DNA from: a phage
Direction: 5' to 3' (one strand)
Length of the DNA: 64,000 nt
Sequence record: PZ476263.1
Shown: one piece after another, positions 2 through 32,792 of the stretch
Layout: each line of letters begins with the position of its first letter
How positions within the stretch are numbered: the stretch's first letter is position 1
The notes under the pieces: generated by a model
Told to the model about the DNA's origin: nothing
The model's input: the letters and a program-made list of their open reading frames with translations, nothing else
The model's database searches: none
Program-made: the position numbers and the translations under genes

Positions 2-1729
2 AAAGGCGATATTGGTAGTGGCCTTATTGCTCGTGGAACTGTTGAAACATCTGTGCAATTGCCTAGTGACGCTGCAATCGGTGATTTTTACGTTGTAACT
101 TCCGAAGGTATTGGCTATGCTTGGGACGGTTCTGATTGGGTAGCCACAGGATTAGCACAAGGACCTATAGGTCCTGCTGGAGCTGATGGTGCCAAGGGTG
201 AAAAAGGCGACAAAGGAGATCAAGGAGAAAAAGGCGACGCTGGTACAGGTCTGACTCCGAAAGGTCTTGTTGACACATCTTCTGACTTACCTTCTTCTGC
301 TGAAGTTGGTGATTTCTACGTAGCTGCTGACACTGGTATTGGTTATGCTTGGGACGGCACTTCTTTTGTAGAGTCCGGCACTGTACGTGGACCACAAGGT
401 GAAGCGGGTCCTCAGGGCGAAGCAGGTCCAGAAGGTCCGCAAGGCCCTCAGGGTGGAATAGGTCCCGTTGGACCAGAAGGTCCGCAAGGTATCGCTGGCC
501 CTAAAGGGGATAAAGGTGACGTTGGTAGTGGTTTAATCCCTCGTGGAACAATCCCGACTATGGCAGACCTTCCTTTGACTGGTGAAGTTGGTGACTTTTA
601 CGTAGCCAATGATACGGGAATCGGCTATGCCTTTAACGGGACTGCTTTTATAGAGTCTGGGGTTGCTCGCGGCCCTCAGGGCGAGAAGGGTGAAACTGGT
701 GCAGTTGGACCGCAGGGTCCGGTTGGTGCTACTGGTGCAATTGGACCGCAGGGTCCTCAGGGTGCTCAAGGTGAACAGGGCATTCAAGGTGAACGAGGAG
801 AAATCGGTCCTCAGGGTGAGAAAGGTGACACTGGAGAGCAGGGTCCTCAAGGGGATATCGGTCCAGGGGTTGAGATCATCGGTAAATTCGATAACTCTTC
901 CGAACTTCCTTCTACTGGTCAATTAGGTCAAGGTTATCTGATCCAAGGTGATTTCTGGGGATGGACAGGTACTGCTTATGAAAACTTAGGTCGTATTCAA
1001 GGTCCTGTAGGCCCTGTAGGTCCGACTGGTAACCAAGGTCCACAAGGTCCTGTCGGTGTTAAAGGGGATAAAGGTGACCAAGGTACTTTGTGGATTGTAT
1101 TCGCAAGGGATCCTTTGGTAAGTGATGGTCGTGTCAACGACTTCTTCCTGAACTCTTCTACTTTGGAATACTTCCGTAAAACGTCTGCAACTAACTGGGC
1201 TTCCCTCGGATACTTGGGTGGTGGTAACGTTTATGATGCACCTGGGGATGGTAAAGCTTACGTCCGTCAAGATCAGGGCTGGTCTGAATTAACTTACCCT
1301 GTCAATGAAGCACCTACCGATGGCGGTGATTATGTTCGTAAGAATGGTACTTGGAGCACTCTGGTTATTCCGGTAACGGAAGCTCCGCTGGAAGGTGGAT
1401 TCTACGTCCGTGAAAACGGTGAGTGGGTGAAACTCGACAAATACGACTTGCGTGTAATTGCTTCTACTGGTGTGGTTGATGCATCTCAGGCCAACAGCTG
1501 GACTTTGGACGGAACAACCAGTAAGTCCTTGGTGATTAATAACCTTCCCGAAGGCCGAGCAATGACTCTTGTACTGAGATTCACTGGTAACGGTGGAAAC
1601 ATTACTTGGGACTCTAAGATCGCATGGTCTAATGGTACAGCACCTGTGCTGGGAGTTACCCGTACTATCCTGACTCTGTTCTGGGATGGTGAGTTCCTTA
1701 CTGGTACTCAAGCAATGACTGTTGGTTAA
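2..1729 (+). CDS. collagen-like fibre protein, 5' end outside window
   Basis: Frame open from window start. Gly-X-Y tracts (GPQGEAGPQG...) alternate with at least three copies of a module 'GSGLIxRGT..DLP..EVGDFYVA.DTGIGYAWDG'. C-terminal three-fold 'DG.YVR.NG.W' repeat. Confidence 0.6.
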   Translation, partial: KGDIGSGLIARGTVETSVQLPSDAAIGDFYVVTSEGIGYAWDGSDWVATGLAQGPIGPAGADGAKGEKGDKGDQGEKGDAGTGLTPKGLVDTSSDLPSSAEVGDFYVAADTGIGYAWDGTSFVESGTVRGPQGEAGPQGEAGPEGPQGPQGGIGPVGPEGPQGIAGPKGDKGDVGSGLIPRGTIPTMADLPLTGEVGDFYVANDTGIGYAFNGTAFIESGVARGPQGEKGETGAVGPQGPVGATGAIGPQGPQGAQGEQGIQGERGEIGPQGEKGDTGEQGPQGDIGPGVEIIGKFDNSSELPSTGQLGQGYLIQGDFWGWTGTAYENLGRIQGPVGPVGPTGNQGPQGPVGVKGDKGDQGTLWIVFARDPLVSDGRVNDFFLNSSTLEYFRKTSATNWASLGYLGGGNVYDAPGDGKAYVRQDQGWSELTYPVNEAPTDGGDYVRKNGTWSTLVIPVTEAPLEGGFYVRENGEWVKLDKYDLRVIASTGVVDASQANSWTLDGTTSKSLVINNLPEGRAMTLVLRFTGNGGNITWDSKIAWSNGTAPVLGVTRTILTLFWDGEFLTGTQAMTVG

Positions 1730-1739
1730 TTTTCAATAA

Positions 1740-1760
1740 GGGGGCTTCGGCCCCCATTTT
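1740..1760 (+). terminator. rho-independent terminator
   Basis: GGGGGC-TTCG-GCCCCC hairpin followed by ATTTT. Confidence 0.55.
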
Positions 1761-1771
1761 AAGGAGAAGTA

Positions 1772-2407
1772 ATGAGTATTAAAATTTATGGCTGGGTTCC
1801 AATGATTCGTATGTCCGACATGCGTTATCCTGTTTACCTTTCCGACTTTAAAGCTGAATATACCAACGTATCTACCGGAAGCTTCGTCTATGAAGAGGGT
1901 ATGGCTGAATTTGGTTATTACCCTGTTCTTGATGTTGATATTCCGCAAGGTGATGTAGTTACCGAAGGAGCACCAGTTCAAGGTGAGGATGGCAAATGGT
2001 ATAAATCTTGGAACTCTCGTGACTACACCGAAGAAGAGATCGCTGATAACCTTCGTCGTCAAAAAGAACAATTAATCTACTCTGCCAAATCTAATTTCGA
2101 AAATGAAAACATGGGGGGTGTAGAAGTTGATGGTAGTTTCTATTCTGTAGATTCAAATTCACTCTCTCTTTATCATTCTATTCTCTCTGTTGCAGAAATG
2201 TCTGAAGACGACAAATTGTTCAGTCTGTTAACTTACGACAATAAGGTTATCGAACATCTCCGTTTAGATGCAATCGAACTTATTGAAGAAATAATTTCCG
2301 TGTATGTAGAAAGCTACAATAATATGACGGCTTTCATTAAAGAAGTGAATGTTGCAAAAAATATGGAAGAATTACCTTCCGTACCTGAGTCTTTCCGCAT
2401 TGCTTAA
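1772..2407 (+). CDS. hypothetical protein, possible fibre-associated chaperone
   Basis: 211-aa ORF with SD AAGGAG, sitting between fibre genes. No motif recognised. Confidence 0.4.
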   Translation: MSIKIYGWVPMIRMSDMRYPVYLSDFKAEYTNVSTGSFVYEEGMAEFGYYPVLDVDIPQGDVVTEGAPVQGEDGKWYKSWNSRDYTEEEIADNLRRQKEQLIYSAKSNFENENMGGVEVDGSFYSVDSNSLSLYHSILSVAEMSEDDKLFSLLTYDNKVIEHLRLDAIELIEEIISVYVESYNNMTAFIKEVNVAKNMEELPSVPESFRIA

Positions 2408-2419
2408 TCGAGGTAATAT

Positions 2420-4036
<1,617 letters not shown>

Positions 4037-4074
4037 TTTAATTATAATTCACAGGGACGTGATTAGGAGATAAT

Positions 4075-5658
4075 ATGACGAATTCTGTAGTAGGTATGGC
4101 AGGTCACAATAATGGTGTATTTTATGGATACTCTCTTTATGACTTGGAGCAAAAAAGAAAGATAGCCTTTAAAGATTTAACTAAGGGTGACTCAGGGGCG
4201 AAGGGCGATAAGGGTGATCCTGGTCCAGAAGGTCCACAAGGTGATAAAGGAGATACCGGAGAGCAAGGCCCTGTAGGACCTCAAGGTCCTGCTGGTGCAC
4301 CAGGGCAACAAGGTGTGCCTGGTGAAAGAGGACCTCAAGGTCCCGAAGGCCCACAAGGCCCTCAAGGCCCAATTGGTCCCGAAGGACCAGTAGGACCAAT
4401 CGGCTCCCAAGGTCCCGAAGGTCCTAAAGGAGAGCAAGGTGAACAAGGCCCTTCTGGATCTCAAGGTCCTCAAGGATTAAAAGGGGATACAGGGGCACAA
4501 GGACCTCAAGGTCCCGTTGGACCCAGAGGAGAGACAGGTGCAACAGGACCTGTTGGACCTAAAGGGGACACAGGCCCAACAGGTCCAAAAGGAGAAACGG
4601 GTGAACAGGGACCCATTGGTCCGCAAGGACCTAAGGGTGATACAGGTCCCGTGGGTCCTGCAAGCTTAACCTTCAGAGGTTTCTATGAACCTCTTGAAGA
4701 ATACAACGAAAAGGATACAGTAGCTTATAATGGTTCTACTTATTTTGCGTTAAGAACCAGTACAGGAGCAACACCGGATATTTCTCCCGATGACTGGGCA
4801 TTACTTGCAGCTGAAGGTGCAGTTGGACCACAAGGACCTATGGGACCAGAGGGTCCGCAAGGTATCGCTGGTGCTCAAGGTCAGGAAGGCCCTATAGGAC
4901 CGCAAGGTGAACAGGGTCCGGTTGGACCTGTTGGCCCACAAGGCCCACAAGGTCCTGCGGGTCAGGAAGGAATAGAAGGCCCTCAGGGACCTCAAGGAGA
5001 AGAAGGCCCTATGGGACCTCAGGGACCACAAGGGATTGTAGGACCAACAGGTCCACAAGGCCCTCAAGGCCCCAAAGGGGACACTGGTGCAGTTGGACCA
5101 CAAGGTCCTCAAGGCCAACAAGGTCTTGATGGTCCACAAGGCCCTGCTGGTCCGCAAGGCGAAAGAGGTGTTACTGGACTAACCGGACCCCAAGGTCCCA
5201 AGGGTGATATCGGCCCTGTGGGTCCGGCTGGCCCTCAAGGTAAGGATGGTAATTCTTACACTATCTACAACTGGGGCAACATATCAACGGGCTATGGTGA
5301 GATGGTAATACCTGGTGTTACTAACACAGTATTCAGAGTGAGACGAGTAGGAACCACATTAGAATACAGTGTACTTAGTAAAGGTGGTGCGAATAGATAC
5401 CTTGACTTCCATACCATAATTCCAGCCCCCTCTACAGGGGGCGCTGTAATTATCCAATCAGGAAATACAACATTGACATCCTCCAGCTCTTTAAATGTTG
5501 TTACATCTGCACCTCCTGGTCTTGGTTTTCGACCAATATTCATCTCTTTAAAAGAGTGGGGAGATAGGGCAATAGTAACCATAGAGGTTTTCCACACAGG
5601 TAGAAGTGGAGATTCCAGTTACCCAATACATGTTCGTATGCTAACGACGAAGTATTGA
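4075..5658 (+). CDS. collagen-like fibre protein, paralog of 2420-4036
   Basis: Same N-terminal motif ('[22 protein letters not shown]') and Gly-X-Y architecture, different C-terminal domain. Confidence 0.65.
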
Positions 5659-8007: not shown

Positions 8008-9423
8008 ATGGCTTATGAAGATAAGGTAGTTGACGTCGAGGTAACTCTTGGTACTCAGCCTATTGATACCGTAGGGTTCGAAACCCCGATGTTCTTAGCA
8101 GTTCATAATAACTTCCCAGAACGTGTACGTTTTTATGGATCATTGGAAAGTCTGGTAGGTGATGGTTTTGCAGTTGGTTCAGCTGCTTATCAGTTTGCCT
8201 CGAACGTATTTGCAGGTTCTTTTGCTGCAAGTCTGGTAGGTATCGGACGTATGTCTCTGGCAAGTTCTCGTGTAGATTTTACCGGAACAGTCAATGAAGA
8301 ACGCGTCGTTGTAAATATTACCATCAATGGTACTATTAAAGCAGTAACTATTTCGCTGCAAGTTGGAAACACCCCAGGTCAAGTTGCTACCGCTCTTGCA
8401 ACTGGTATTAATGATGATGTAGACCTCGCAGGTCGAGTTGTTGCTACTGTAGAAAACAGCACTGTTGTAGTGATCCAGTCTGCTGAGAAAGTTAGCATCG
8501 GGAAAGGTGAGGGCACTTATAAGATCGTAAACACCTCTGCTGAAACTGTTGCTACTGTATTGCCTCAGGTTCTGGCTGAAAACCACAACTGGTACTTCCT
8601 GTCCCATGAACAGCGTTCTGATGCAGATATCGTTGCTGCTGCCGAATTTGCTCAGGCAAACTACAAACTGCACGTTTATAACTCCAGCGATTCTGATGCA
8701 CTGGCGGCTGCTAACCAAAGCACCTCTGTCTTTGACACGCTGAAATCTTTGGGTTATAACTCCCTCGGGACCTACGACAAAGATGCAGATGTGGAATATA
8801 CCGAAGGTTCTGTAATCGGTGCAATGGCTGCAAACGATCCTTCTTACGGTGACTCTATCCACCTGAAGACAATGCCTGGTATGGCTCCTTCTACCATCTC
8901 TGAAACTCAGCGTATGAACGCATGGGGACGTAACGCAAACATTTATCGTGCAATGTACGGTACTAACAGCTATATCGAAGGTCGTACTTCCAGCGGTCAG
9001 TATGTTGACGTTATTCGCTTCTCCCACTGGCTGAAGTTCCGTATGGAAGAATCTGTATTTGGTTACATGAAGCGTCGTTCTGATCAAGGTCAGTCCATGA
9101 AGATGAGTGATGAAGATCTTCCGGTTCTGCGTTCTATCCTGTTTAACAACCCAATCAACATCGGTATTCGTAACGGTGGTATCTTGACGGGTTATGACAG
9201 TGTGAACCGTGTAAGCTACGATCCGATTATCACCATCCCACGTCGTGCTGAAATCCCGACTAACGATTTAGCTAACCGTATCCTGCGTGATGTTAAAGTT
9301 GAAGTAGTTTACAACAACTCTCTGCATTACGTCAAAATCCGCGCTGCTGTGGTTCTTGATCGTCCGGCAAATACGACTCAGAGCACCCAAGCTCCTTTCT
9401 CTAACTCTTCTGTAGGGGTGTAA
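8008..9423 (+). CDS. putative tail sheath protein
   Basis: 471 aa, immediately upstream of a 160-aa tube-like gene and a tape measure gene. Called from gene order and size. Confidence 0.5.
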   Translation: MAYEDKVVDVEVTLGTQPIDTVGFETPMFLAVHNNFPERVRFYGSLESLVGDGFAVGSAAYQFASNVFAGSFAASLVGIGRMSLASSRVDFTGTVNEERVVVNITINGTIKAVTISLQVGNTPGQVATALATGINDDVDLAGRVVATVENSTVVVIQSAEKVSIGKGEGTYKIVNTSAETVATVLPQVLAENHNWYFLSHEQRSDADIVAAAEFAQANYKLHVYNSSDSDALAAANQSTSVFDTLKSLGYNSLGTYDKDADVEYTEGSVIGAMAANDPSYGDSIHLKTMPGMAPSTISETQRMNAWGRNANIYRAMYGTNSYIEGRTSSGQYVDVIRFSHWLKFRMEESVFGYMKRRSDQGQSMKMSDEDLPVLRSILFNNPINIGIRNGGILTGYDSVNRVSYDPIITIPRRAEIPTNDLANRILRDVKVEVVYNNSLHYVKIRAAVVLDRPANTTQSTQAPFSNSSVGV

Positions 9424-18991: not shown

Positions 18992-20626
18992 ATGGCTATA
19001 CCAACTACGCCGATTGTTGTTTTTGCGGCACAAGATGTTAACCTTCCTGGTACTGGAAGACCAAACAAATCAAAACCTATTGATGATCTGTTGGCGAAAG
19101 GTTATGACAAGGGCCAGAAACCTGCGGCGGAAGAATTTAACTATATCCTCCACCAATCTGGAGCTTGGCTTTCTTATATCATCAATGAGAAGTTCCCCGA
19201 GGTAGAAGAGGAATATCGCAGACTAATCAACGAGCTTGAAAATCGTATTAACGAACAGATCACTATTATTCGTCAAGACGTTGCTGCGGTAAGGCAAAAC
19301 GTAATTGAATTACGTCAATACTTGGATCAACAGGTGGCGAATCTTCGTCGTGAGATTACTGCGGTTGACCAACGGGTTACTCGTTTATCTCAAGACTTGG
19401 ATGCGGCTGTTGCTAACCTTACTTCACGTATAGATGCATTGGAGCCTCGTTTAGTTCCAATTGGTGCAATCCTTACATGGGCAGGACAAACCCCGCCTGC
19501 GGGTTATTTAGAGTGTAATGGTCAGGTATACAATACGAACCAAAACCCGAAACTCTATCAAGTTTTAGGAAGAAACGTAGTTCCTGATTATCGTGGTTTG
19601 TTCCTTCGTGGATGGGCGCATGGGTCTAACGCATACGATCCTGATTCTGGTCGTGCATTGGGATCTATTCAGGGCGATGCAATCCGAAACATTACGGGCG
19701 CAATGGGATATGAAAGTATCCGTACTGACCACGGTTATCGTGAAACTGGTGCACTTTATACTCAGTACAATTCCAACAGTGGTCCAGACCATGACCGTAA
19801 AAACCCTGCGGGTGATGTACGGTTTGATGCGAGCCGTGTAGTTCCTACCGCTCCTGAGAACAGACCAAAAAACGCCGCAGTTATGTATATCATAAAAACT
19901 GATCAGGCTCAGGGTACGGGAAGTCTTTCTCCTACGTCCTTGATTACTACACCTGATACGATAACTAACCGTGTTGGATTTACTCAAGGGATTAGTGCTC
20001 AAGTTCTTCCTGCAAACTTAGCTAGTCAGTATCCGGTAACTTGGACATCACAAAACGGTAATGTTGCAACCGTGGATAGTGCAGGTAACGTAAGATTGAC
20101 CGGACCTGGTGAGACGAATATTATTGCCTCTATATCTACGGGATTGTCGGCGCAGGTTAGAATTGTATCCTATACCGCACTAACAAGTATTAGTATTGGC
20201 ACTATTCCAACCATAGAAGTTAACGGGTCTGAAGTTGTACCTATTAACAGAGTACCTGCAAACTCCAATGAACCTCTGGTTTATTCAACCAGTAATGCAA
20301 ACGTGGCAGTAGTTACCCAAGGTGGTTATGTTTCAGGTGTTGCTCCAGGGACAGCTGTTATTACTGTGCGTGGCTCTATTTCTGGCGCTCAAGCTACAAG
20401 ACAGGTAACTGTAATTCCTGCGACTGTTGTTCAAACTATCGAAGATGTTCGTTTAGGTATTGAACAGCAAACCACTATGAACGGTGACAACTACACGAGT
20501 CCAGTTCGTGCTCCGGCAGGTTGTGTTATCACAGGTGTTGTTTCTGCGGGTCTTGGTCTTAACCAAGGTTATTATAAACCAATCCAGAAGCTTATGTCCG
20601 GCGTTTGGGTGACAGTTCAAGGATAA
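18992..20626 (+). CDS. tail fibre protein with collar domain
   Basis: Coiled-coil heptads, then the phage tail-collar signature 'PIGAILTWAGQTPPAGYLECNGQVYN...NPKLYQVLG', then Ig-like beta-rich C-terminal region. Confidence 0.65.
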   Translation: MAIPTTPIVVFAAQDVNLPGTGRPNKSKPIDDLLAKGYDKGQKPAAEEFNYILHQSGAWLSYIINEKFPEVEEEYRRLINELENRINEQITIIRQDVAAVRQNVIELRQYLDQQVANLRREITAVDQRVTRLSQDLDAAVANLTSRIDALEPRLVPIGAILTWAGQTPPAGYLECNGQVYNTNQNPKLYQVLGRNVVPDYRGLFLRGWAHGSNAYDPDSGRALGSIQGDAIRNITGAMGYESIRTDHGYRETGALYTQYNSNSGPDHDRKNPAGDVRFDASRVVPTAPENRPKNAAVMYIIKTDQAQGTGSLSPTSLITTPDTITNRVGFTQGISAQVLPANLASQYPVTWTSQNGNVATVDSAGNVRLTGPGETNIIASISTGLSAQVRIVSYTALTSISIGTIPTIEVNGSEVVPINRVPANSNEPLVYSTSNANVAVVTQGGYVSGVAPGTAVITVRGSISGAQATRQVTVIPATVVQTIEDVRLGIEQQTTMNGDNYTSPVRAPAGCVITGVVSAGLGLNQGYYKPIQKLMSGVWVTVQG

Positions 20627-22269: not shown

Positions 22270-25200
22270 GTGTCGTCTAATACCGATATTTTAGCTTTGC
22301 TTAATACGGAAGCGGATCAAGCTGTGGACCAAATCATTGAAGACTCTAGAAGACTTCACTTGGTGGTCAATGGTACAGGAACAGAACAAGTAGTTACTGA
22401 AGATGGTAGCCTGATTCCTACAATCCGTAAAGCAATTATTGATAATTTTTATTTCAAAACTCCACCTTTACCTTGGAGAAATGGAGGATCGGTTGTTGAG
22501 TTTAACCAACTGTATGCTTTCACCGATCTGAATGGGAATGTATCTTGGTGGTATGCTCCTGGTGCGACGAGTGCTTCTCCTGTTGTGATGAGAGATAGCC
22601 CAATCAATGATGGTAAGTTTAGACCATTCTTTGATAAAGGTAATATTCAAGACACTTACGCTCCGCTTCTTTCTCCGGCTTTCCGTGGAAACCCTACAGT
22701 ACCACTCCCTCCTGAGGGAGATTCTTCCTTTACCATTGCACCAACTGCATGGGTATCTCGCGAAATTGAAAAGGTCCGTGGTGAAATAGTTGAAGAATCT
22801 CGCGGTGAATTTCAAAACATTATTGTAAGGGACGATGCATCTCTTAAAGACCTCTACGTAAGTGGGGAAGCGATCTTTACAAGTGAGAGAATTGCTGCAT
22901 TGGATTCCGAGCTGTCGCTTAAGCGCTTAAGAATGGCAGGTCCACAAGCGGAGATGGCTTTTGAGCAAAATGGATCCTCCCCTGCTGCGGGACTTACCAA
23001 AAAGACAAATATAAAGCCTTATGAAATAACCACTGGCAGGTTCATTTCCAATACTGTGCAGGCTGACGAGATTAAAGTTGGTGATACCTCTCGTTCAGTA
23101 AACAGTTTGGATGTTGAAGGTTACATGCAGGCTGATTATTTACATCTGGAAGGTAATGCCAATAACGATGCGGAAAGACCTCAGTTAATTGTTGACGGCA
23201 TCGCAGAGATTAAAACTCTTCGCGTTATAGATACAATTGAAGGGTTGAAAGCTGACGTTGAAGGTCTAGATATTAACCCCAATAGTGTCGTAGTTGAAAG
23301 AACTTCAAGGGTAAAAGGTGCAGCAACTTTTGATTCTACCGTAAATGTATCCGGCACAACGACTTTAAATAATGTGGTTATTGAAGGTACGCTAACGGGC
23401 GCAGGGATCGGTGTTGACGGAAAAGATATTGCTCCTCGTTCAGTAAATGCGACTTCTGTAACTGTTGCACAAAATCTTAACGTAACTGGTGAGACTTTTG
23501 CAGCTGGGGATATGACTGTAAATAACCTTAGGGTTAACGGTGCACTCATCGCAGATATCGATATTGAGGGAAGTGATCTTAACTTCACCAACATTAACGT
23601 CTCAGAAAAAGCCACAATAAAAGACCTTGAAGTGACAGGAACTGTAACCGGATTTACTGTAAGTGTTGACGGAGAGGATATTTCTCCTGCAACGGTAACA
23701 ACCTCCGGCAATGTAACTGTTGGAAATAACCTTCGTGTCTCTGGCGATCTTACTGTAGATGGTGAACTGGCAATACCTGCCTTAGATACAGGAGAGATCA
23801 CTGCGGGAGATATTTCAGGTAATTCTTTAACCCTCGACGGCGATCTTACCACAGGTCCAGAGTCTACCACTCGTCTTCATAATCTCGTTGTCACAGGAAC
23901 GACCACAGGCCTCACTGTAACAGCGAATGTAGATGGACAAGACATTCTCCCATCCAGTGTCGCTACAGGCAATCTGGATGCATCTGGAGAGGTTTCAGCG
24001 GCATCTCTGTCGGTTACTGGGGCAACGCAAGTAAAAGACCTGAATATTACAGGGACTGTTACCGGATTACAGATCGATCTTTCTGACGAGGCGGTATCTG
24101 TTGATTCAATAACGGCAAGAAGAACTTCCAACTTCGCAGATATTAGTACGACAAATATCACAAATGCTGAAAAGATTACAACTCAGGATTTACAAATCCT
24201 CGGTGATCTTACAGATGCTGACGGTAACCCATTCTATGCCAATGTGACTGGTCAAGACATCTTACCTAACAGTGTTCAATCTGCAACATCTGTCCGAACT
24301 AAAACTTTACGTGTTGAAGAAACATCTCTTCTTGAAGGAACAGTTACTTTAAATAACGGATTGATTGTTACTGACGGGGACATAACTTCAACGCAAGGTA
24401 TTGCAAAGTTTAACGATGTTCAGATATTTGGTTCTTTAACAGATGCGAATGGTAATGGTATTGGCACTGTTGAAAGTATCCAAGGAAGAGATATTGCCCC
24501 TCGAAGTGTTGTGGCTCAAGTTGATGTTCAGGCCGCAGCCTTAGAAATAACAGGGCAGGCACATGTAGGTTCTTTGATTGTTGATGGAGAAACTACAACG
24601 AGCAGCATAAACATTTCAGGTATTGCAACTGCTAATGAAGTTATTGTTGACACGGTAAGGTCTGGTCAGATAACTTCAGGAAACGTAGTAATAACAAGAA
24701 CTGTAGGCTCTTCTGATCCGGCACTTGAAGTACGTGGCCCAGGGCAGATTCAAGGCGATCTCAGTGTTACTGGAACAATCTCTGGAAACATTGACCTGTC
24801 TGCCAAAGATATCAGTGTAAACTCTTTAACCTCAGCAGGAGCTATAACCGGAATATCTGTTTCTTCCAGCACTTCTGTAACTGGATTGTCTGCTACTTTT
24901 GGTGAAGATTACCCTGAAGCACCTGCCTACGGGATTACATCTTTATCTGGTGCAAACATTAATAAAAACCTTCGTGTTGGTGGTAATTTAACTGTTGTTG
25001 GGAACATCTCTGGAAACATTGATCTTAGTGGGAAGACTATCTCTCCGCAAGAGGTTGATGCAACCACGATTGGAGCTACAAATGCCAATCTGACCAACCT
25101 TACAGTTACCGGAAACCTGACTTTACCTTCAGTACCTTTGACTTCTCAAAGTCTTACGGCGGAGGGTCTTGTTAGTGCAGCTAAGTTTAGCACAACTCCA

Positions 25201-25503
25201 AAAGAAAATACAACCAGTTCTTCTACCTACATCCCTGACGGAACTACAAGCGTTTATAACGTTAACGTAGTAAACGATGTGGAAGTAAGAGCACCGTTGA
25301 ATTTGCTTACAAGTGCTAAAGGAGAATCAATTTTCCTGTTCTTCGAACAAGACTCCATCGGAGGTCATGCTGTAACCTTCGGTTCTGATTTTGTTATTCA
25401 TGGAAGTGAAACCATCAACACGGATCCTAGTTCAATAACTGTGGTAAACATGGTTTATCGTGGTAAAGGTCCTTTGATTGACGTTTTCATCACCCGTCGC
25501 TAA
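22270..25503 (+). CDS. large tail fibre/spike protein with tandem beta-repeats
   Basis: 1077 aa, GTG start with SD AGAGGAG. About eight imperfect repeats of '..TG.(V/L)TG..V.VDG(K/E/Q)DI(A/S/L)P.SV..'. Confidence 0.6.
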   Translation: MSSNTDILALLNTEADQAVDQIIEDSRRLHLVVNGTGTEQVVTEDGSLIPTIRKAIIDNFYFKTPPLPWRNGGSVVEFNQLYAFTDLNGNVSWWYAPGATSASPVVMRDSPINDGKFRPFFDKGNIQDTYAPLLSPAFRGNPTVPLPPEGDSSFTIAPTAWVSREIEKVRGEIVEESRGEFQNIIVRDDASLKDLYVSGEAIFTSERIAALDSELSLKRLRMAGPQAEMAFEQNGSSPAAGLTKKTNIKPYEITTGRFISNTVQADEIKVGDTSRSVNSLDVEGYMQADYLHLEGNANNDAERPQLIVDGIAEIKTLRVIDTIEGLKADVEGLDINPNSVVVERTSRVKGAATFDSTVNVSGTTTLNNVVIEGTLTGAGIGVDGKDIAPRSVNATSVTVAQNLNVTGETFAAGDMTVNNLRVNGALIADIDIEGSDLNFTNINVSEKATIKDLEVTGTVTGFTVSVDGEDISPATVTTSGNVTVGNNLRVSGDLTVDGELAIPALDTGEITAGDISGNSLTLDGDLTTGPESTTRLHNLVVTGTTTGLTVTANVDGQDILPSSVATGNLDASGEVSAASLSVTGATQVKDLNITGTVTGLQIDLSDEAVSVDSITARRTSNFADISTTNITNAEKITTQDLQILGDLTDADGNPFYANVTGQDILPNSVQSATSVRTKTLRVEETSLLEGTVTLNNGLIVTDGDITSTQGIAKFNDVQIFGSLTDANGNGIGTVESIQGRDIAPRSVVAQVDVQAAALEITGQAHVGSLIVDGETTTSSINISGIATANEVIVDTVRSGQITSGNVVITRTVGSSDPALEVRGPGQIQGDLSVTGTISGNIDLSAKDISVNSLTSAGAITGISVSSSTSVTGLSATFGEDYPEAPAYGITSLSGANINKNLRVGGNLTVVGNISGNIDLSGKTISPQEVDATTIGATNANLTNLTVTGNLTLPSVPLTSQSLTAEGLVSAAKFSTTPKENTTSSSTYIPDGTTSVYNVNVVNDVEVRAPLNLLTSAKGESIFLFFEQDSIGGHAVTFGSDFVIHGSETINTDPSSITVVNMVYRGKGPLIDVFITRR

Positions 25504-26775: not shown

Positions 26776-26810
26776 AAAAAAGGCTCCCAAAAGGGAGCCT
26801 TTATTTTTAT
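26776..26810. terminator. bidirectional terminator between convergent late and early units
   Basis: AAAAAGGCTCCC-AAAA-GGGAGCCTTTATTTTTAT, with T/A runs on both sides. Confidence 0.6.
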
Positions 26811-26819
26811 CCTTGAATA

Positions 26820-27977
26820 TTAGAATGGAATTTCATCATCGAAATCCATCATTCCGTCTGCAACCGACATATCGATGTGACCATCTGAAATCGTAGATTG
26901 AGGAGCATCTTCTTCACTAGGCTTCAGATCCTGCTGTTTTACAGGATCCTCTACCTTGCCACCATTTCGAATCTTATCTTCCAGAGAATTAATGAATCGG
27001 AATGTTTCTTCTGTTTTCTGAATAAATGCATCAATACTTTCATTTCCCCAACGAGCAGAAAGAATACCGGACTGACCTAAACGTGCACCAAATGCATAAT
27101 CATCTAAAGATTTAAATTCATCACGTAGCTTGGCTTTAACAGAATCCATAGCTTGAAGGATCTGTTCTACGATAACACCTTTTTCCAAAACTGATTGTTC
27201 AGGGAACATAGCTTCAGAAATTGAAAGGGCATTTCCGAGGCGAATAGGTAGATCATCTTTCTTACTGCCGCCGGACTTATTGCCTGTTGAGCCGCCTGAA
27301 TTTTTAGGACCATACGCTTTAAAGTTAGTTACTTTACCTTCACCATCCCGCAGACCTGCAATTCGACCATCTTTAGCAATTTGAGCCAACTGATCATTAG
27401 AAAGAACGACAAAAACTTCTTCACCACTTTCCACTTTCACAACCACACGATTCCCATCTACCGATGTAATATCACCATAGATTTTAGTTGCCGTTGCAGA
27501 AGACGTTTGCTGGCCTTGCTGTGCTGACTGTTGGCGAGCCTCTCGTGCACCGGAAGCGTCCGTAACCTTAATCTTAGATTTCTTACCTTCAATTGATTCA
27601 CCTTGCTCACCATTAGCACGAGTAAAGACTTTCTTTGAAACAGGTAGACGAATCTTCATACCCTCTTTCAGATCAACGTAGCCACCTTCAGGATTCTTAA
27701 TCTGGAACTGATTTTCATACTTCAGATTCTTAACTTCACCTTCACCAAAAGAAATCCAAGCCTGATCTTCACCTTCTTTCAACAGAACAGAATATCGATG
27801 AGTATTGTTAATGCTCTTTTGTTGGCCTGTGCTCTTATCCTTGAATGTCGTAACTCGTGGACTGCCGTCTTCATTAATACGTTTGATAACGATTCGCTCA
27901 ATAGTACCCGCAGCGATAGAAACAGTAACATCGTTAACAGCATCGTATACAGAATTAATAACTTTAACTTCAGACAT
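26820..27977 (-). CDS. single-stranded DNA-binding protein-like, acidic C-terminal tip
   Basis: 385 aa, Gln/Ser-rich linker, C-terminus '...MDFDDEIPF' closely matching the E. coli SSB tip (DFDDDIPF). Strong SD. Confidence 0.5.
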   Translation of the reverse strand: MSEVKVINSVYDAVNDVTVSIAAGTIERIVIKRINEDGSPRVTTFKDKSTGQQKSINNTHRYSVLLKEGEDQAWISFGEGEVKNLKYENQFQIKNPEGGYVDLKEGMKIRLPVSKKVFTRANGEQGESIEGKKSKIKVTDASGAREARQQSAQQGQQTSSATATKIYGDITSVDGNRVVVKVESGEEVFVVLSNDQLAQIAKDGRIAGLRDGEGKVTNFKAYGPKNSGGSTGNKSGGSKKDDLPIRLGNALSISEAMFPEQSVLEKGVIVEQILQAMDSVKAKLRDEFKSLDDYAFGARLGQSGILSARWGNESIDAFIQKTEETFRFINSLEDKIRNGGKVEDPVKQQDLKPSEEDAPQSTISDGHIDMSVADGMMDFDDEIPF

Positions 27978-28473: not shown

Positions 28474-28502
28474 ATCTTACCCCAACCTTTATTACCTGTC
28501 AA
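28474..28502 (-). promoter_or_regulatory. sigma70-like promoter
   Basis: TTGACA-N17-TAAGAT on minus strand. Confidence 0.45.
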
Positions 28503-28942
28503 TACTCTGCGCGAGGTTTAACTACACCAGCTTTAGAAATTGGAAGCTCATCTGCATCTTTACCACGAAGACTATTGATCCATTCCCGTTCTGTCATGAC
28601 ATATTCGTGGTTGTCCTCTTTTGCTAGGCGAACATAAATTTCATAAGCTGACTCTCCGACGGGTCCCATATTACCTCGATCACCTTGTGGACCAGATAAA
28701 ATCTTTTCTACCTGTGCTTTTTCAACGACAGGTTTTGATTTGTATAGCGACCAAATCAGCAGGCCAGTCCAAATAGCCAGACCCGCAAAAGGGTAAATCG
28801 ACAATACAAGTCCCAACAAAGAAAGGATTAAAATAATGTGTTTGTTAAGATGGTCCCGCTTATAAGCGATAACTACAGGAACAAACCAGATCGCCAATAC
28901 AATTAAAGACAGAAAAAGAAAAATTACTATTGCAACATCCAT
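28499..28942 (-). CDS. membrane protein, superinfection-immunity-like N-terminus fused to fibre-like motif
   Basis: Two to three hydrophobic helices ('PVVIAYKRDHLNKHIILILSLLGLV...GLLIWSLY'), then 'GPQGDRGNMGPVGESAYEIYVRLAKED...EREWINSLRG'. Confidence 0.4.
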   Translation of the reverse strand: MDVAIVIFLFLSLIVLAIWFVPVVIAYKRDHLNKHIILILSLLGLVLSIYPFAGLAIWTGLLIWSLYKSKPVVEKAQVEKILSGPQGDRGNMGPVGESAYEIYVRLAKEDNHEYVMTEREWINSLRGKDADELPISKAGVVKPRAEY

Positions 28943-28957
28943 AATGACCTCCTCAGA

Positions 28958-29161
28958 TTAATCGCTTAAAGTAACAGTATCGAAAAACACATCCCGCATC
29001 CACTCTTCAGCGGGACGAATGTAATAACCAGTTTTACCTAGAGATTGGTAATATTTTAAAATCTCTTTGGCAATATCTTTAGTCAAACCTGCCGCTACAA
29101 TACAGCCACCAGGTCCAGAGACTACATGTGTTTTGTATTTATCATTTTTGTTTTTGCTCAT
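28958..29161 (-). CDS. hypothetical protein
   Basis: 67-aa ORF. Confidence 0.3.
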   Translation of the reverse strand: MSKNKNDKYKTHVVSGPGGCIVAAGLTKDIAKEILKYYQSLGKTGYYIRPAEEWMRDVFFDTVTLSD

Positions 29162-29450
29162 TATTCTCTCCCTCTAATTTTTGTTTAAGTTTTTCTGCAT
29201 CCCAACTGTATGAGCTTGGAAGCCCCATTTTAACGTCACTATCTGTAAATGTACATAAAACACCTTTTGCGTCCTGACCCCGTTTAATTATAGAACTATT
29301 ATTATAGTTCGGTTGACTTTTACAAAATTTGTGCAGACTAATAATTTCACTTGGGGTTAAGGATGGTAATTTAGAATAAGAATCTGGTTTTTCATCTTTT
29401 AAATCACAACCTGCAAGAAGAAAAATAAAAGCAACGATTAATTTTTTCAA
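29142..29450 (-). CDS. putative lipoprotein
   Basis: Signal peptide with lipobox (MKKLIVAFIFLLAGC), TTG start with SD GGAGGA. Confidence 0.4.
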   Translation of the reverse strand: MKKLIVAFIFLLAGCDLKDEKPDSYSKLPSLTPSEIISLHKFCKSQPNYNNSSIIKRGQDAKGVLCTFTDSDVKMGLPSSYSWDAEKLKQKLEGENNEQKQK

Positions 29451-29451
29451 T

Positions 29452-29601
29452 TCACGATCCTCCCCAATACTTAAACAATTCTACACATGCGATTGTTGAC
29501 AGTATGAACCATATGGCACTTACAACATTTACATACAGGAATCTACAACCTGCCATAGAAACCATTATAAAGAGGCAGACAAAAGTTTTATAATCAATCA
29601 T
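29452..29601 (-). CDS. small hydrophobic protein (49 aa), not in ORF track
   Basis: ATG overlaps upstream stop (ATGA); product MIDYKTFVCLFIMVSMAGCRF... has two hydrophobic segments. Confidence 0.25.
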   Translation of the reverse strand: MIDYKTFVCLFIMVSMAGCRFLYVNVVSAIWFILSTIACVELFKYWGGS

Positions 29602-30002: not shown

Positions 30003-30077
30003 ATTAATACCTCACTCCCGTTATGTTACTTTTACTCCGATGTAAGAGGGGTATTATAACCCCTCTCGATTTATTTA

Positions 30078-30707
30078 TCAATCACAACTTGAAGAACTTG
30101 AACCGCTATCATAAGAGCTACTGTCATAAGAGCTGGATGAACTCTCATAAGATGATGAAGAAGAACTTGAAGAACAAGATCGACTAGGTTCATCGCTCGC
30201 CATAACAGCGGCATACGTTCCAATACCTCCTAAAACACCTGCTGTTAATGGTACGTCATTGTTGCTGTTGACTTGAGTTGTTCCAGATCGAGATGTCGAA
30301 TTATGGGCCTCTTTAATAAATTTACGTTTAGCCTTTGGCGGCAGTTTCTTACCTTGTGCATAAACAGGAAGGTCAACTTCTTTCAATTTCTCATCTAAAG
30401 GTTTAGCCTTTTTAGGTGGAACTTTTTCAAGCTTAGAAACTTTAACAGTTTTCTTGTCGATGTTAACTCCAACGACGACTTCATTTTCTTCCAGATCGGT
30501 TTCAAATTTTTGAATCTTCGGCTTAGTGAAACGAACACTTTCAGACTTAACATTTAAACCAACAGCTTCAACATATTCTTTTACCTTTTGGGGAGCCTGA
30601 ACATTGTTCACATACTTCCGAGAATTAATATACTCATCAACTTTTGAAGTTTCGATCTTGACAGGTACAAAAATAGATTTCACCCAAGAAAATAATTTTT
30701 TAAACAT
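30078..30707 (-). CDS. hypothetical protein with Ser-rich C-terminal tail
   Basis: 209 aa, Lys-rich middle, one hydrophobic segment, C-terminal 'SCSSSSSSSSYESSSSSYDSSSYDSGSSSSSCD' from repetitive DNA. Confidence 0.4.
   Translation of the reverse strand: MFKKLFSWVKSIFVPVKIETSKVDEYINSRKYVNNVQAPQKVKEYVEAVGLNVKSESVRFTKPKIQKFETDLEENEVVVGVNIDKKTVKVSKLEKVPPKKAKPLDEKLKEVDLPVYAQGKKLPPKAKRKFIKEAHNSTSRSGTTQVNSNNDVPLTAGVLGGIGTYAAVMASDEPSRSCSSSSSSSSYESSSSSYDSSSYDSGSSSSSCD
30080..30180 (-). repeat. simple-sequence (Ser-codon) repeat inside CDS
   Basis: Reiterated short units (tcataagagct and gaagaacttgaa variants) on the plus strand. Confidence 0.4.
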
Positions 30708-30739: not shown

Positions 30740-30768
30740 ATTGTAATTCAATAGCCTTTGCTTGTCAA
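30740..30768 (-). promoter_or_regulatory. sigma70-like promoter with -10 inside an inverted repeat
   Basis: TTGACA-N17-TACAAT; 9-bp inverted repeat AGGCTATTG/CAATAGCCT spans the -10. Confidence 0.5.
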
Positions 30769-31945: not shown

Positions 31946-31975
31946 ATTATAGTTCATAAAGTATGGACCTGTCAA
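31946..31975 (-). promoter_or_regulatory. sigma70-like promoter
   Basis: TTGACA-N18-TATAAT on minus strand. Confidence 0.45.
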
Positions 31976-31984
31976 CATATTTAT

Positions 31985-32010
31985 ATAAATAAAAAGGCCA
32001 CCCGAAGGTG
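31985..32010 (-). terminator. rho-independent terminator (minus strand)
   Basis: On minus-strand RNA: GGUCACC-UUCG-GGUGGCC followed by UUUUUAUUU. Confidence 0.55.
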
Positions 32011-32021
32011 ACCTTAATAAA

Positions 32022-32763: not shown

Positions 32764-32792
32764 ATTATAGGCTTCCTTGCCCAATGTGTCAA
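32764..32792 (-). promoter_or_regulatory. sigma70-like promoter
   Basis: TTGACA-N17-TATAAT (consensus hexamers). Confidence 0.5.

What the first reader, a model, noticed from the sequence alone, without database searches (positions are those of the whole stretch)
28499..28942. Membrane protein joining a superinfection-immunity-like helix pair to a collagen/tail-fibre-type motif
The N-terminus (PVVIAYKRDHLNKH then two hydrophobic helices) resembles phage superinfection-immunity proteins. The C-terminus carries a short Gly-X-Y stretch and 'SAYEIYVRLAKED...EREWINSLRG', a motif I associate with phage fibre and collagen-like proteins. Fibre-like sequence on an early membrane protein could be a decoy for the phage's own fibres (superinfection exclusion).
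Basis: inference. Interest (0 to 1): 0.45.

Follow-up and report, generated by a model that had tools for sequence, protein, structure and literature searches.

The report
Imm-type membrane protein with collagen stalk
A small early gene of a large E. coli-type phage encodes a relative of the phage T4 "immunity" membrane protein carrying an added collagen-like stalk, a borrowed tail-fibre cassette and a conserved tip peptide; it most likely helps block a second phage from injecting DNA, not act as a fibre decoy.

Summary
The ORF is real (28499..28942, minus strand, 147 aa) and both sequence resemblances hold. Residues 1-68 are a divergent Imm_superinfect (T4 Imm-type) two-helix membrane domain. 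That domain is below Pfam's cut-off here, but the homology is confirmed in both directions by profile searches. Residues 84-127 are five Gly-X-Y triplets plus a 30-residue cassette that recurs in about 500 phage genomes, mostly inside tail-fibre or minor-tail proteins.

Comparison of more than 50 relatives changes the emphasis. The cassette is optional (0, 1 or 2 copies) and the collagen run varies from none to 13 triplets. The constant parts are the Imm core and a C-terminal tip, DA(D)E-[IL]-P-[LI]-S-K-x-G-V. Charge distribution and the AlphaFold model favour a periplasmic stalk. A disulfide-type lipoprotein gene sits immediately upstream in 11 of 14 tip-bearing loci examined. The gene lies in a cluster with host-type (sigma-70) promoters.

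Best reading: an early superinfection-exclusion protein whose Imm core acts at the inner membrane, as T4 Imm does on the tape-measure protein, and whose tethered tip contacts a periplasmic partner. The "fibre decoy" idea is not supported. This is a new variant of a known kind, and its function is untested.

The parts
28499..28942 (-). Whole ORF, 147 aa plus stop: Imm-like membrane domain, collagen-like stalk, fibre-type cassette and conserved tip.
   Evidence: PHROG 15593 matches full length at E=1.9e-19. More than 50 homologous clusters were found. Purifying selection is seen against L023 and L024.
28948..28954 (-). Shine-Dalgarno sequence GAGGAGG, 5 nt upstream of the ATG.
   Evidence: Read directly from the sequence.
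28739..28942 (-). Residues 1-68: divergent Imm_superinfect-type domain. It comprises helix 2-28 (kinked at invariant P22), the basic loop K28-R-D-H-L-N-K34, and helix 34-67 with invariant W58.
   Evidence: Pfam and PHROG hits. hhalign to T4 Imm gives E=1.7e-5, with T4 R33 aligned to R29 and T4 W55 aligned to W58. The AF2 model has pLDDT 90-95 over residues 1-60. The reciprocal profile search retrieves genuine PF14373 proteins.
28694..28738 (-). Residues 69-83: juxtamembrane linker (SKPVVEKAQVEKILS). This is the most variable part of the protein.
   Evidence: Alignments. pN for linker plus Gly-X-Y is 0.44. In most relatives this stretch is a short 'SPEVVVVQ'-type strand, which is also present at the C-terminal end of canonical Imm proteins.
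28652..28693 (-). Residues 84-97 (with S98 completing the fifth triplet): collagen-like run GPQ GDR GNM GPV GES.
   Evidence: G87 and G90 are invariant. Pfam Collagen hits 4 of 9 aligned relatives and is precomputed for many database relatives. Run length varies from none to 13 triplets.
28562..28651 (-). Residues 98-127: fibre-type collagen-interrupting cassette SAYEIYVRLAKEDNHEYVMTEREWINSLRG, modelled as helix-loop-helix.
   Evidence: tblastn to annotated tail fibres. The same placement between Gly-X-Y runs is seen in Heffalump gp8 and Hena1 gp196. AF2 gives H99-109 and H118-125 at pLDDT about 82. pN is 0.051 while pS is about 0.69. It is the only copy in the window.
28502..28561 (-). Residues 128-147: family-defining tip KDADELPISKAGVVKPRAEY. 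D129, A130, P134, G139 and V140 are invariant, and G127 is the invariant last Gly of the stalk.
   Evidence: Alignments. The tip is found once per genome, only at the syntenic locus of a subset of Vequintavirinae. Distant members keep DA[IV]P[LMI]SK.G. pN is 0.039.
29142..29450 (-). Candidate partner gene: a 102-aa lipoprotein (lipobox LAGC, Asp at +2) with two further invariant Cys. It sits two genes upstream here and directly upstream, overlapping, in most relatives.
   Evidence: and alignment A4. PHROG 15849 scores E=2e-25.
30053..30081 (-). Nearest strong sigma-70-type promoter upstream of the cassette: TTGATA-17-TATAAT, 11 of 12 matches.
   Evidence: This is a consensus match only; no transcription data are available.
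26779..26802 (.). Bidirectional intrinsic-terminator-like hairpin that closes the minus-strand cluster and the convergent fibre cluster.

Best explanation
This is an early-expressed inner-membrane protein of a rV5/CR3-like (Vequintavirinae-type) myovirus, and it belongs to a previously undescribed sub-family of T4 Imm-type proteins.

Shown:
- A two-helix Imm_superinfect-like core (aa 1-68) is followed, exactly where canonical Imm proteins end, by a Gly-X-Y collagen-like stalk of variable length.
- In this phage the stalk carries one copy of a mobile helix-loop-helix cassette that otherwise interrupts collagen runs in phage fibre proteins.
- The protein ends in a near-invariant tip peptide, DA(D)E-[IL]-P-[LI]-S-K-x-G-V.

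Inferred:
- The acidic N-tail and the strongly basic loop place both termini in the periplasm, so the stalk projects from the inner membrane into the periplasm and probably trimerises.
- The tethered tip supplies a second contact, either with the co-encoded periplasmic disulfide-type lipoprotein or with the incoming tail tip.
- The fibre-type cassette is a structural spacer or trimerisation element acquired by module shuffling. It is not a decoy.
For: Homology of the core:
- Searches give the Pfam, PHROG and hhalign support.
- The family profile retrieves small proteins that score 48-70 bits on PF14373.
- UniRef already names the CR8 and PBES 02 homologues 'Superinfection immunity protein'.
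- T4 R33, whose mutation reduces exclusion, aligns with R29, which is at least 90% conserved in the family.

Architecture and constraint:
- pN is 0.05 for the cassette and 0.04 for the tip, against 0.25 for the membrane domain and 0.44 for the linker plus Gly-X-Y.

Topology:
- Over 56 members the N-tail has 0.00 basic and 1.04 acidic residues, the loop has 3.86 basic and 0.57 acidic, and the first 15 residues after helix 2 are net zero.
- AF2 gives one continuous helix 34-67 at high confidence.
- A canonical family member (P0089) carries a signal-peptide-like leader in front of the domain.
- The partner domain has a lipobox or signal-anchor and two invariant Cys, so it is periplasmic.

Partner: the lipoprotein or anchored domain lies directly upstream in 11 of 14 loci with a PLSK-type tip and in 0 of 3 without one.

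Early expression: several sigma-70 promoters matching 11-12 of 12 positions lie on the gene's strand, and a terminator closes the cluster.

Target available: the window encodes an 810-aa tape-measure protein. The T4 mechanism comes from preprint 10.64898/2026.03.06.709160.
Against: - No functional data exist for any member. Within PF14373, T4 Imm is the only member for which I found experimental evidence, so 'exclusion' is an extrapolation.
- The window protein itself scores below Pfam's cut-off and lacks the canonical GWT..GW motif. Its second helix carries an 8-9 residue insertion.
- The T4 preprint splits Imm's second hydrophobic stretch into two helices joined by a loop (W50). If that applied here, the stalk would be cytoplasmic.
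- Members with only 4 triplets, or none (P0049), cannot form a stable triple helix, so trimerisation may not be essential.
- Three tip-bearing loci (L018, L019, L021) lack the lipoprotein, and the co-occurrence count is small and not phylogenetically independent.
- Promoter matches are consensus scans only.
Confidence: 0.55

Rival explanations
1. Fibre decoy: the fibre-like C-terminus mimics part of the phage's own fibres or their target and titrates incoming virions, giving exclusion at the adsorption step.
For: The cassette is shared with annotated tail fibres. In this lineage it is under strong purifying selection, with pN 0.051.
Against: - The cassette is absent from most family members, which keep the rest of the architecture.
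- In real fibres it sits in the collagen shaft, not in receptor-binding tips.
- No other copy exists in the window's fibre or collagen genes.
- The protein has an inner-membrane anchor and no route to the cell surface.
Confidence: 0.04
2. Cytoplasmic stalk: the second hydrophobic stretch forms a hairpin around the conserved S48/P51, as modelled for T4 Imm. The stalk and tip would then face the cytoplasm and tether a cytoplasmic phage or host factor to the membrane, for example something from the neighbouring DUF7325 or SSB-like genes.
For: - The T4 Imm model in the preprint has a loop (W50) inside the second hydrophobic stretch.
- That stretch is long here, 33 residues, with conserved S48 and P51.
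- Collagen-like fibre proteins normally fold in the cytoplasm.
- The tip DADELP loosely recalls the acidic DFDDEIPF end of the neighbouring SSB-like protein.
Against: - AF2 models one uninterrupted helix 34-67 at pLDDT of at least 84.
- The post-helix flank has no net positive charge, and no basic residue at all in the CR3 subgroup.
- The acidic part of the tip is not conserved in distant members (DAVPLSK, ETYVPLSK), and the motif is internal rather than at the carboxyl end.
- The best-correlated neighbour is a periplasmic lipoprotein.
Confidence: 0.15
3. Not exclusion: together with the lipoprotein it forms an envelope complex with another role, such as a spanin-like or lysis-timing device, protection against lysis-from-without, or envelope remodelling. 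The Imm fold would serve only as a membrane anchor.
For: - The pairing of an inner-membrane anchor with a periplasmic stalk next to a lipoprotein gene, often with overlapping reading frames, resembles the i-spanin/o-spanin arrangement.
- There is a weak 'Rz-like spanin' PHROG hit on the lipoprotein (E=0.003).
- Most PF14373 proteins have no known function.
Against: - The spanin hit covers only the signal peptide, aa 1-21.
- Gene order is reversed relative to Rz/Rz1.
- The lipoprotein is an ~80-residue Cys-bonded domain, not a short Pro-rich peptide.
- The cluster has sigma-70 promoters and sits among small early genes next to an SSB-like gene, not with lysis genes.
- The stalk can be as short as about 10 residues (P0049), too short to span the periplasm.
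Confidence: 0.15

Closest known systems
Phage T4 Imm (immunity to superinfection; Pfam PF14373 Imm_superinfect)
   Same: - It is a small early inner-membrane protein with two hydrophobic helices joined by a basic loop.
- The shared signature is P-x-x-I-A-x-x-R-x-(H)-x-(N), and T4 R33 aligns with R29.
- A Trp in helix 2 is conserved (T4 W55 aligns with W58).
- A short beta-like V/I-rich segment follows helix 2.
- Both phages have contractile tails with a tape-measure protein.
   Different: - T4 Imm ends about 18 residues after helix 2, whereas this family adds a collagen-like stalk, 0-2 fibre cassettes and a conserved tip.
- Helix 2 has an 8-9 residue insertion and lacks the GWT..GW motif.
- The window protein scores below the Pfam cut-off (19.4 against 27.9 bits).
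- It is paired with a lipoprotein gene that has no detected similarity to anything known.
Collagen-like phage and prophage fibre proteins (e.g. E. coli O157 prophage EPclA-D, PMC3368898; Mycobacterium phage Heffalump gp8; Erwinia phage Hena1 gp196)
   Same: Gly-X-Y runs are interrupted or flanked by short non-collagen modules that act as trimerisation or registration elements. The identical SAY-E-x-Y...E-W-L-x-S-L-R/K-G cassette sits between Gly-X-Y runs.
   Different: - Those are large virion proteins with N-terminal attachment and C-terminal binding domains; this is a 147-aa membrane-anchored non-structural protein.
- The cassette is not any of the Pfam-defined fibre modules. There is no PF03406, PF08400 or PF06820 hit, and it has no solved structure by sequence.
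Two-component exclusion sets of lytic phages (T4 Imm plus the periplasmic Spackle; T5 lipoprotein Llp)
   Same: An early membrane protein and a periplasmic or lipid-anchored protein are encoded by the infecting phage, and both act in the envelope (PMC7677548 and PMC9586334, listed).
   Different: No sequence similarity of the lipoprotein to Sp or Llp was detected or specifically tested. The physical link proposed here, a tethered tip peptide, has no counterpart in those systems.
Two-component spanins (Rz/Rz1)
   Same: An inner-membrane anchored protein with an elongated periplasmic part is encoded next to, and sometimes overlapping, a lipoprotein gene.
   Different: See the membership test: gene order, expression context, nature of the lipoprotein and stalk length all differ.

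Membership tests
Imm_superinfect (Pfam PF14373; T4 Imm type) | Score at or above Pfam's gathering threshold (27.9 bits). | tested here: not met
   The window protein scores 19.4 bits, E=0.001, and only profile positions 1-26 of 42 align. Some relatives carry a precomputed PF14373 hit (P0006, P0017, P0033, P0035, P0042). P0049 scores 27.0 bits.
Imm_superinfect (Pfam PF14373; T4 Imm type) | Homology to genuine members, shown by reciprocal profile searches. | tested here: met
   All 9 aligned members hit PF14373, best E=1.8e-5. hhalign of the family against T4 Imm gives E=1.7e-5, probability 79%. The family profile finds small proteins at E=1e-5 to 1e-9 in 1.8 billion sequences, and these score 48-70 bits on PF14373.
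Imm_superinfect (Pfam PF14373; T4 Imm type) | Signature at the end of helix 1 and in the loop: (L/V)P-x-x-IA-x-x-R-x-H-x-N. | tested here: met
   The window protein has VPVVIAYKRDHLN. P22 and N33 are invariant, and A26, R29 and H31 are at least 90% conserved.
Imm_superinfect (Pfam PF14373; T4 Imm type) | Helix-2 motif N-x-x-x-GWT-x-x-GW. | tested here: not met
   The motif is replaced by S48-x-x-P51 plus an 8-9 residue insertion. Only the second Trp (W58) is kept.
Imm_superinfect (Pfam PF14373; T4 Imm type) | Two membrane helices with the N-terminus in the periplasm. | tested here: inconclusive
   AF2 gives a two-helix hairpin at pLDDT 90-95. The charge bias fits N-out and loop-in. No experimental topology exists, and the T4 model may differ.
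Imm_superinfect (Pfam PF14373; T4 Imm type) | Blocks DNA entry of a superinfecting phage and binds the tape-measure protein. | not testable with these tools
   This needs plating-efficiency, DNA-entry and pull-down experiments. The tape-measure gene is present at 10781-13213.
Collagen triple-helix repeat proteins (Pfam PF01391) | Uninterrupted Gly-X-Y repeats, rich in Pro and charged residues. | tested here: met
   The window has five perfect triplets, aa 84-98, too few for a Pfam hit on this protein. Relatives have 4-13 triplets in register, always ending G-(K/R)-D, and many hit PF01391.
Collagen triple-helix repeat proteins (Pfam PF01391) | Forms a trimeric triple helix. | not testable with these tools
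   Only monomer prediction is available, and the stalk is modelled as coil at pLDDT about 58. This needs circular dichroism, SEC-MALS or a multimer prediction.
Phage-fibre 'SAYE...EW..SL(R/K)G' collagen-interrupting cassette (no curated family) | A cassette of about 25-35 residues placed in register between Gly-X-Y runs, with conserved G-x-x-G-x-(S/T)-A-Y and (W/F)-(L/I)-x-x-L. | tested here: met
   Alignment A3 shows invariant G1, G4, Y8 and L33. tblastn hits fibres, and placement in genuine fibres is seen. On the C-terminal side the window copy is followed by a single G-K-D triplet and then the tip.
Two-component spanin (Rz/Rz1) | Encoded in the lysis cassette. The i-spanin has a coiled-coil periplasmic domain, and the o-spanin is a short Pro-rich lipoprotein encoded after or within it. 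| tested here: not met
   The cluster is early-type with sigma-70 promoters. The lipoprotein gene comes first and encodes an ~80-aa domain with two invariant Cys. The stalk is collagen-like, not coiled coil, and can be absent. The PHROG spanin hit covers the signal peptide only.

The most novel reading that the evidence does not exclude
A new two-component superinfection-exclusion device. A trimeric, collagen-stalked Imm protein presents its conserved tip to a co-encoded disulfide-bonded periplasmic lipoprotein, or directly to the incoming tail tip. This would build a periplasmic trap in front of the inner membrane that intercepts the tail tube or tape-measure protein of a second phage. Collagen and fibre cassettes would then have been recruited from virion genes into an anti-virion defence.
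Probability: 0.2. Interest if true: 0.7.

Novelty: new variant of a known kind. Interest (0 to 1): 0.45.

Why it matters
The mechanism of T4 Imm was proposed only in a 2026 preprint: it binds the tape-measure protein.

This family offers a natural set of variants of the same core. They carry stalks of very different length (none to 13 triplets, with 0-2 cassettes), one invariant tip, and a frequently co-encoded periplasmic partner. That makes the question of what else is needed at the periplasmic face to stop genome delivery directly testable by truncations and swaps.

It also documents collagen-like sequence and a fibre cassette in a non-structural early phage protein. That is a clear case of structural modules being shuffled into a different functional class.

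Practically, exclusion genes of rV5/CR3-like phages matter for phage-cocktail design.

Tried and rejected
1. A word-indexed protein search with the cassette alone found nothing, which reflects the index limit rather than absence. tblastn then showed the cassette is common.
2. No relative of the cassette, the whole family or the lipoprotein was found among solved structures by sequence or profile; hits were chance-level only.
3. A Foldseek search of the AF2 model against viral predicted structures returned only the family's own UPEC06-type homologue.
4. PADLOC and NCBIfam gave no hit for the protein or its cassette neighbours.
5. Single-sequence AF2 of the lipoprotein gave pLDDT 51.5 and is unusable.
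6. I tested whether the cassette is the 'Pf2' or 'PCoil' element of E. coli prophage collagen proteins (PMC3368898). No PF03406 hit appears in this protein or in fibres carrying the cassette, so it is a different, uncurated module.
7. I considered whether the tip DADE(I/L)PL mimics the SSB C-terminal tip DFDDDIPF. I rejected this because the motif is internal, its acidic part is lost in distant members, and the topology evidence points to the periplasm.
8. I checked whether the tip is copied from another phage protein. It occurs once per genome and only at this locus.
9. The 1993 T4 Imm topology paper (PMC237878) is not held, so T4 topology rests on the preprint's statement that the N-terminus is periplasmic.
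10. A literature search on Vequintavirinae and superinfection found nothing about this gene.
Full report
**1. Observation.**
The ORF lies at 28499..28942 on the minus strand and encodes 147 aa. A GAGGAGG Shine-Dalgarno sequence sits 5 nt before the ATG (sequence). The protein reads: MDVAIVIFLFLSLIVLAIWFVPVVIAYKRDHLNKHIILILSLLGLVLSIYPFAGLAIWTGLLIWSLYKSKPVVEKAQVEKILSGPQGDRGNMGPVGESAYEIYVRLAKEDNHEYVMTEREWINSLRGKDADELPISKAGVVKPRAEY.

- Pfam Imm_superinfect: E=0.001, 19.4 bits (cut-off 27.9), aa 18-43.
- PHROG 1039 'immunity to superinfection': E=2.6e-5 over aa 4-81.
- PHROG 19976 'tail assembly protein': E=1.6e-5 over aa 81-140.
- PHROG 15593, an unannotated family: E=1.9e-19 over the full length.

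**2. Genome context.**
The window is a distant relative of ~140-150 kb Vequintavirinae myoviruses. Only 12% of a 3 kb query matches at 84.5% DNA identity. The protein matches syntenic 'hypothetical' genes of UPEC06, A5-4, CR3, CR9, DU_PP_I and SSBI34.

The plus strand from about 50 to 26774 carries structural genes:
- three large collagen-like ORFs;
- the tail sheath at 8008-9423;
- an 810-aa tape-measure protein at 10781-13213;
- tail fibres at 18992-20626 and 22270-25503.

The gene of interest lies near the end of a convergent minus-strand cluster of small genes. That cluster carries sigma-70-type promoters matching 12 of 12 positions (32792, 31975) and 11 of 12 positions (30768, 30081). It ends at a bidirectional terminator-like hairpin at 26779-26802. 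This is the layout expected of host-polymerase-transcribed early genes. It is an inference from consensus matches, not a measurement.

**3. The family and its anatomy.**
An alignment of nine homologues, a profile search giving 42 clusters and an exhaustive HMM search of 1.8 billion representatives define a family with a fixed plan.
- (a) An N-terminal membrane domain. P22 and N33 are invariant; W19, A26, R29, H31, S48, P51 and L62 are at least 90% conserved.
- (b) A short V-rich juxtamembrane strand ('SPEVVVVQ').
- (c) A run of perfect Gly-X-Y triplets, always ending G-(K/R)-D.
- (d) Inserted in that run, 0, 1 or 2 copies of the cassette (S/T)AY-E-x-Y...(D/E)-W-(L/I)-x-S-L-(R/K)-G.
- (e) A near-invariant tip, D-A-D-E-(I/L)-P-(L/I)-S-K-x-G-V-(V/L)-K-P.

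The window protein has five triplets and one cassette. CR9 and DU_PP_I have four triplets and no cassette, CR3 has ten triplets, and UPEC06 and A5-4 have two cassettes.

More distant members reduce the tip to DA(I/V)P(L/M/I)SK-x-G. One (P0049, 89 aa) has no collagen at all. Two (P0116, P0117) have a membrane domain, collagen and a cassette but no tip.

The constant elements are the Imm core and the tip.

**4. The N-terminal domain is a divergent Imm domain.**
- All nine aligned members hit PF14373 (best E=1.8e-5), and several database relatives have precomputed PF14373 hits.
- hhalign of the family against T4 Imm gives E=1.7e-5 over residues 12-70 versus 13-65.
- The family profile on its own retrieves small proteins (E=1e-5 to 1e-9) that are textbook PF14373 members at 48-70 bits.
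- T4 R33, whose mutation weakens exclusion according to preprint 10.64898/2026.03.06.709160, aligns with R29. T4 W55 aligns with W58.

There are differences. The canonical GWT..GW motif of helix 2 is replaced by S48-x-x-P51 plus an 8-9 residue insertion, which is why the Pfam alignment stops at profile position 26 and the score stays under the cut-off. I therefore call it a homologue forming a distinct sub-family, not a threshold-passing member.

**5. The C-terminal cassette.**
- In Heffalump gp8 it reads ...GPQGPLGYSAYQVALEEGFEGTEAEWLASLRGPQGIQGPQGP....
- In Hena1 gp196 it reads ...GDQGLPGASAYEVYVSTVPEGEDPLEPEEWIASLQGSS....

So it interrupts or terminates collagen runs in genuine fibre shafts. 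A consensus-like copy finds 504 phage records at 980 places across Gram-negative and Gram-positive hosts, mostly annotated tail fibre or minor tail protein.

No Pfam family covers it, and no solved structure matches by sequence. AF2 models it as helix-loop-helix (H99-109, H118-125, pLDDT about 82).

A profile of the cassette finds no other copy in the window.

By analogy with the non-collagen trimerisation modules of prophage collagen-like proteins (PMC3368898), it is most simply a registration or trimerisation spacer. That is an inference.

**6. Selection.**
Against the 67%-identical relative (L024), synonymous sites are saturated (pS about 0.78). Nonsynonymous divergence by region is shown below.

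| Region | pN |
|---|---|
| Membrane domain (aa 1-68) | 0.25 |
| Linker plus Gly-X-Y (aa 69-98) | 0.44 |
| Cassette (aa 99-127) | 0.051 |
| Tip (aa 128-147) | 0.039 |

Against the 97% relative (L023), all five nonsynonymous changes fall in the linker and Gly-X-Y region, and the four synonymous changes fall in the cassette and tip.

The ORF is clearly coding. Where the cassette is present it is constrained, and the tip is the most conserved part.

**7. Topology.**
AF2 with a 35-sequence alignment gives pLDDT 90-95 for residues 1-60. The helices are 2-19 and 21-28, then a loop at 29-33, then a single uninterrupted helix at 34-67.

Charge statistics over 56 members:

| Segment | Basic residues (mean) | Acidic residues (mean) |
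|---|---|---|
| N-tail | 0.00 | 1.04 |
| Loop between helices | 3.86 | 0.57 |
| First 15 residues after helix 2 | 1.62 | 1.62 |

The CR3 subgroup has no basic residue in the segment after helix 2. By the positive-inside rule (established knowledge), this gives N-out, loop-in, C-out. Helix 2 preceded by KRDHxNK then looks like an uncleaved signal-anchor that exports the stalk.

This agrees with the periplasmic N-terminus reported for T4 Imm, and with a canonical family member (P0089) that carries a signal-peptide-like leader before the domain.

One caveat remains. The preprint's model of T4 Imm places a loop (W50) inside the second hydrophobic stretch. If helix 2 here were a hairpin around P51, the stalk would be cytoplasmic. 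I put the periplasmic orientation at roughly two in three.

**8. A conserved neighbour.**
In the window and all six annotated relatives the gene belongs to a cassette in this order:
- a ~135-aa protein (PHROG 12333);
- a ~50-aa membrane protein (PHROG 22594);
- a 92-102-aa lipoprotein;
- in the window, UPEC06 and A5-4 only, a 62-67-aa soluble protein;
- the Imm-collagen gene;
- a DUF7325 gene;
- a 385-391-aa protein ending DFDD(D/E)IPF.

The lipoprotein has a lipobox L-x-G-C and two further invariant Cys, plus P33, L39, V64, Y81, D84 and A85 (alignment A4). It is therefore very probably a disulfide-bonded periplasmic domain. In two distant loci the same domain is held by an N-terminal membrane anchor instead of a lipid. 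In CR3, CR9, DU_PP_I and SSBI34 its stop overlaps the start of the Imm-collagen gene.

Across 17 loci examined, the partner is directly upstream in 11 of 14 with a PLSK-type tip and in 0 of 3 without one (Fisher p=0.03; the sample is small and not phylogenetically independent). This is suggestive of a functional pair, but three exceptions show the pairing is not obligatory.

**9. Mechanism.**
Shown: the architecture, homology, conservation pattern, neighbourhood and promoter-like sites.

Inferred:
1. The protein is made early and inserts in the inner membrane with the stalk in the periplasm.
2. The Imm core acts like T4 Imm, which is reported to bind the tape-measure protein and prevent formation of the DNA channel.
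3. The Gly-X-Y stalk with its cassette trimerises and/or simply tethers the tip. Stalk length varies from about 10 to about 120 residues, so it is a tether rather than a ruler.
4. The tip is a short linear binding motif for the co-encoded lipoprotein or for a component of the incoming tail.

**10. Novelty.**
I found no paper on this family. Database records say 'hypothetical protein', or 'Superinfection immunity protein' by automatic naming.

An Imm-type core fused to collagen repeats, a fibre cassette and a conserved tip is a new variant of a known kind.

Interest is moderate. The anatomy is unusual and well supported, and it gives handles on an exclusion mechanism that is only now being resolved, but every functional statement is an extrapolation.

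Noticed in passing
window 26820..27977 (-): A 385-aa protein (PHROG 4477, 'unknown function') ends in ...MMDFDDEIPF. Its homologues in UPEC06, L010 and L013 end in DFDDDIPF or DFDLDIPF, and L011 carries DFDDDIPF about 15 residues before its C-terminus. This is the acidic tip typical of bacterial SSB (own knowledge), so it is probably the phage's SSB-like protein. Pfam gives only weak OB/SH3-like hits.
   Followed up: partly
window 29142..29450 (-); L001 about 3470-3766; L010 about 736-1017: A conserved lipoprotein family (PHROG 15849) with two invariant Cys lies next to the Imm-collagen gene. In UPEC06 it is annotated from an internal Met as a 67-aa protein although the full ORF with a lipobox is present. 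In L010 it was not called at all (GTG start). The residue after the lipid Cys is Asp in the window, CR9, DU_PP_I, L010 and L011 (inner-membrane retention by the E. coli rule), but Lys, Leu or Asn in others.
   Followed up: partly
window 2..5655 (+): Three consecutive large ORFs of about 530-575 aa have Gly-X-Y runs of more than 100 residues. One has a Fibritin_C (foldon-type) hit at E=4.8e-9, and two have weak CBM_5_12 hits. None carries the SAYE cassette.
   Followed up: partly
window 30078..30707 (-): A 209-aa ORF ends in an extreme Ser-rich tail, SCSSSSSSSSYESSSSSYDSSSYDSGSSSSSCD. An 11-of-12 sigma-70 promoter match lies just upstream at 30768..30740.
   Followed up: no
window 32792..32764 and 31975..31946 (-): Two perfect 12-of-12 sigma-70 consensus promoters (TTGACA-17/18-TATAAT) lie in the small-gene cluster. 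A terminator-like hairpin sits at 32015..31994.
   Followed up: no
L010 1286-1630; L011 1053-1385; L016 954-1388; L020 3116-3538; L021 2860-3219; L022 2978-3310: A conserved ~110-145-aa gene (motif ATLHMAGD...RKF..RGAC.Q.A.C.Y.YT.G.E.GFTAR...YPRFP) follows, directly or one gene downstream, the Imm-like gene in distant relatives. It is absent from the window's cassette. Function unknown.
   Followed up: no
proteins P0042 and P0044 (metagenomic relatives): The tip motif is duplicated: ...DDAEPVVAPLGKAGSTKGTVTVPLSKSGRR. This suggests the PL(S/G)K-x-G unit is the functional core of the tip.
   Followed up: no
window 29452..29601 (-): A 49-aa hydrophobic protein (PHROG 22594, E=1e-13) is conserved immediately upstream of the lipoprotein gene in the window, UPEC06, A5-4, DU_PP_I, L010 and L021. 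It is another small membrane component of the same cassette.
   Followed up: no
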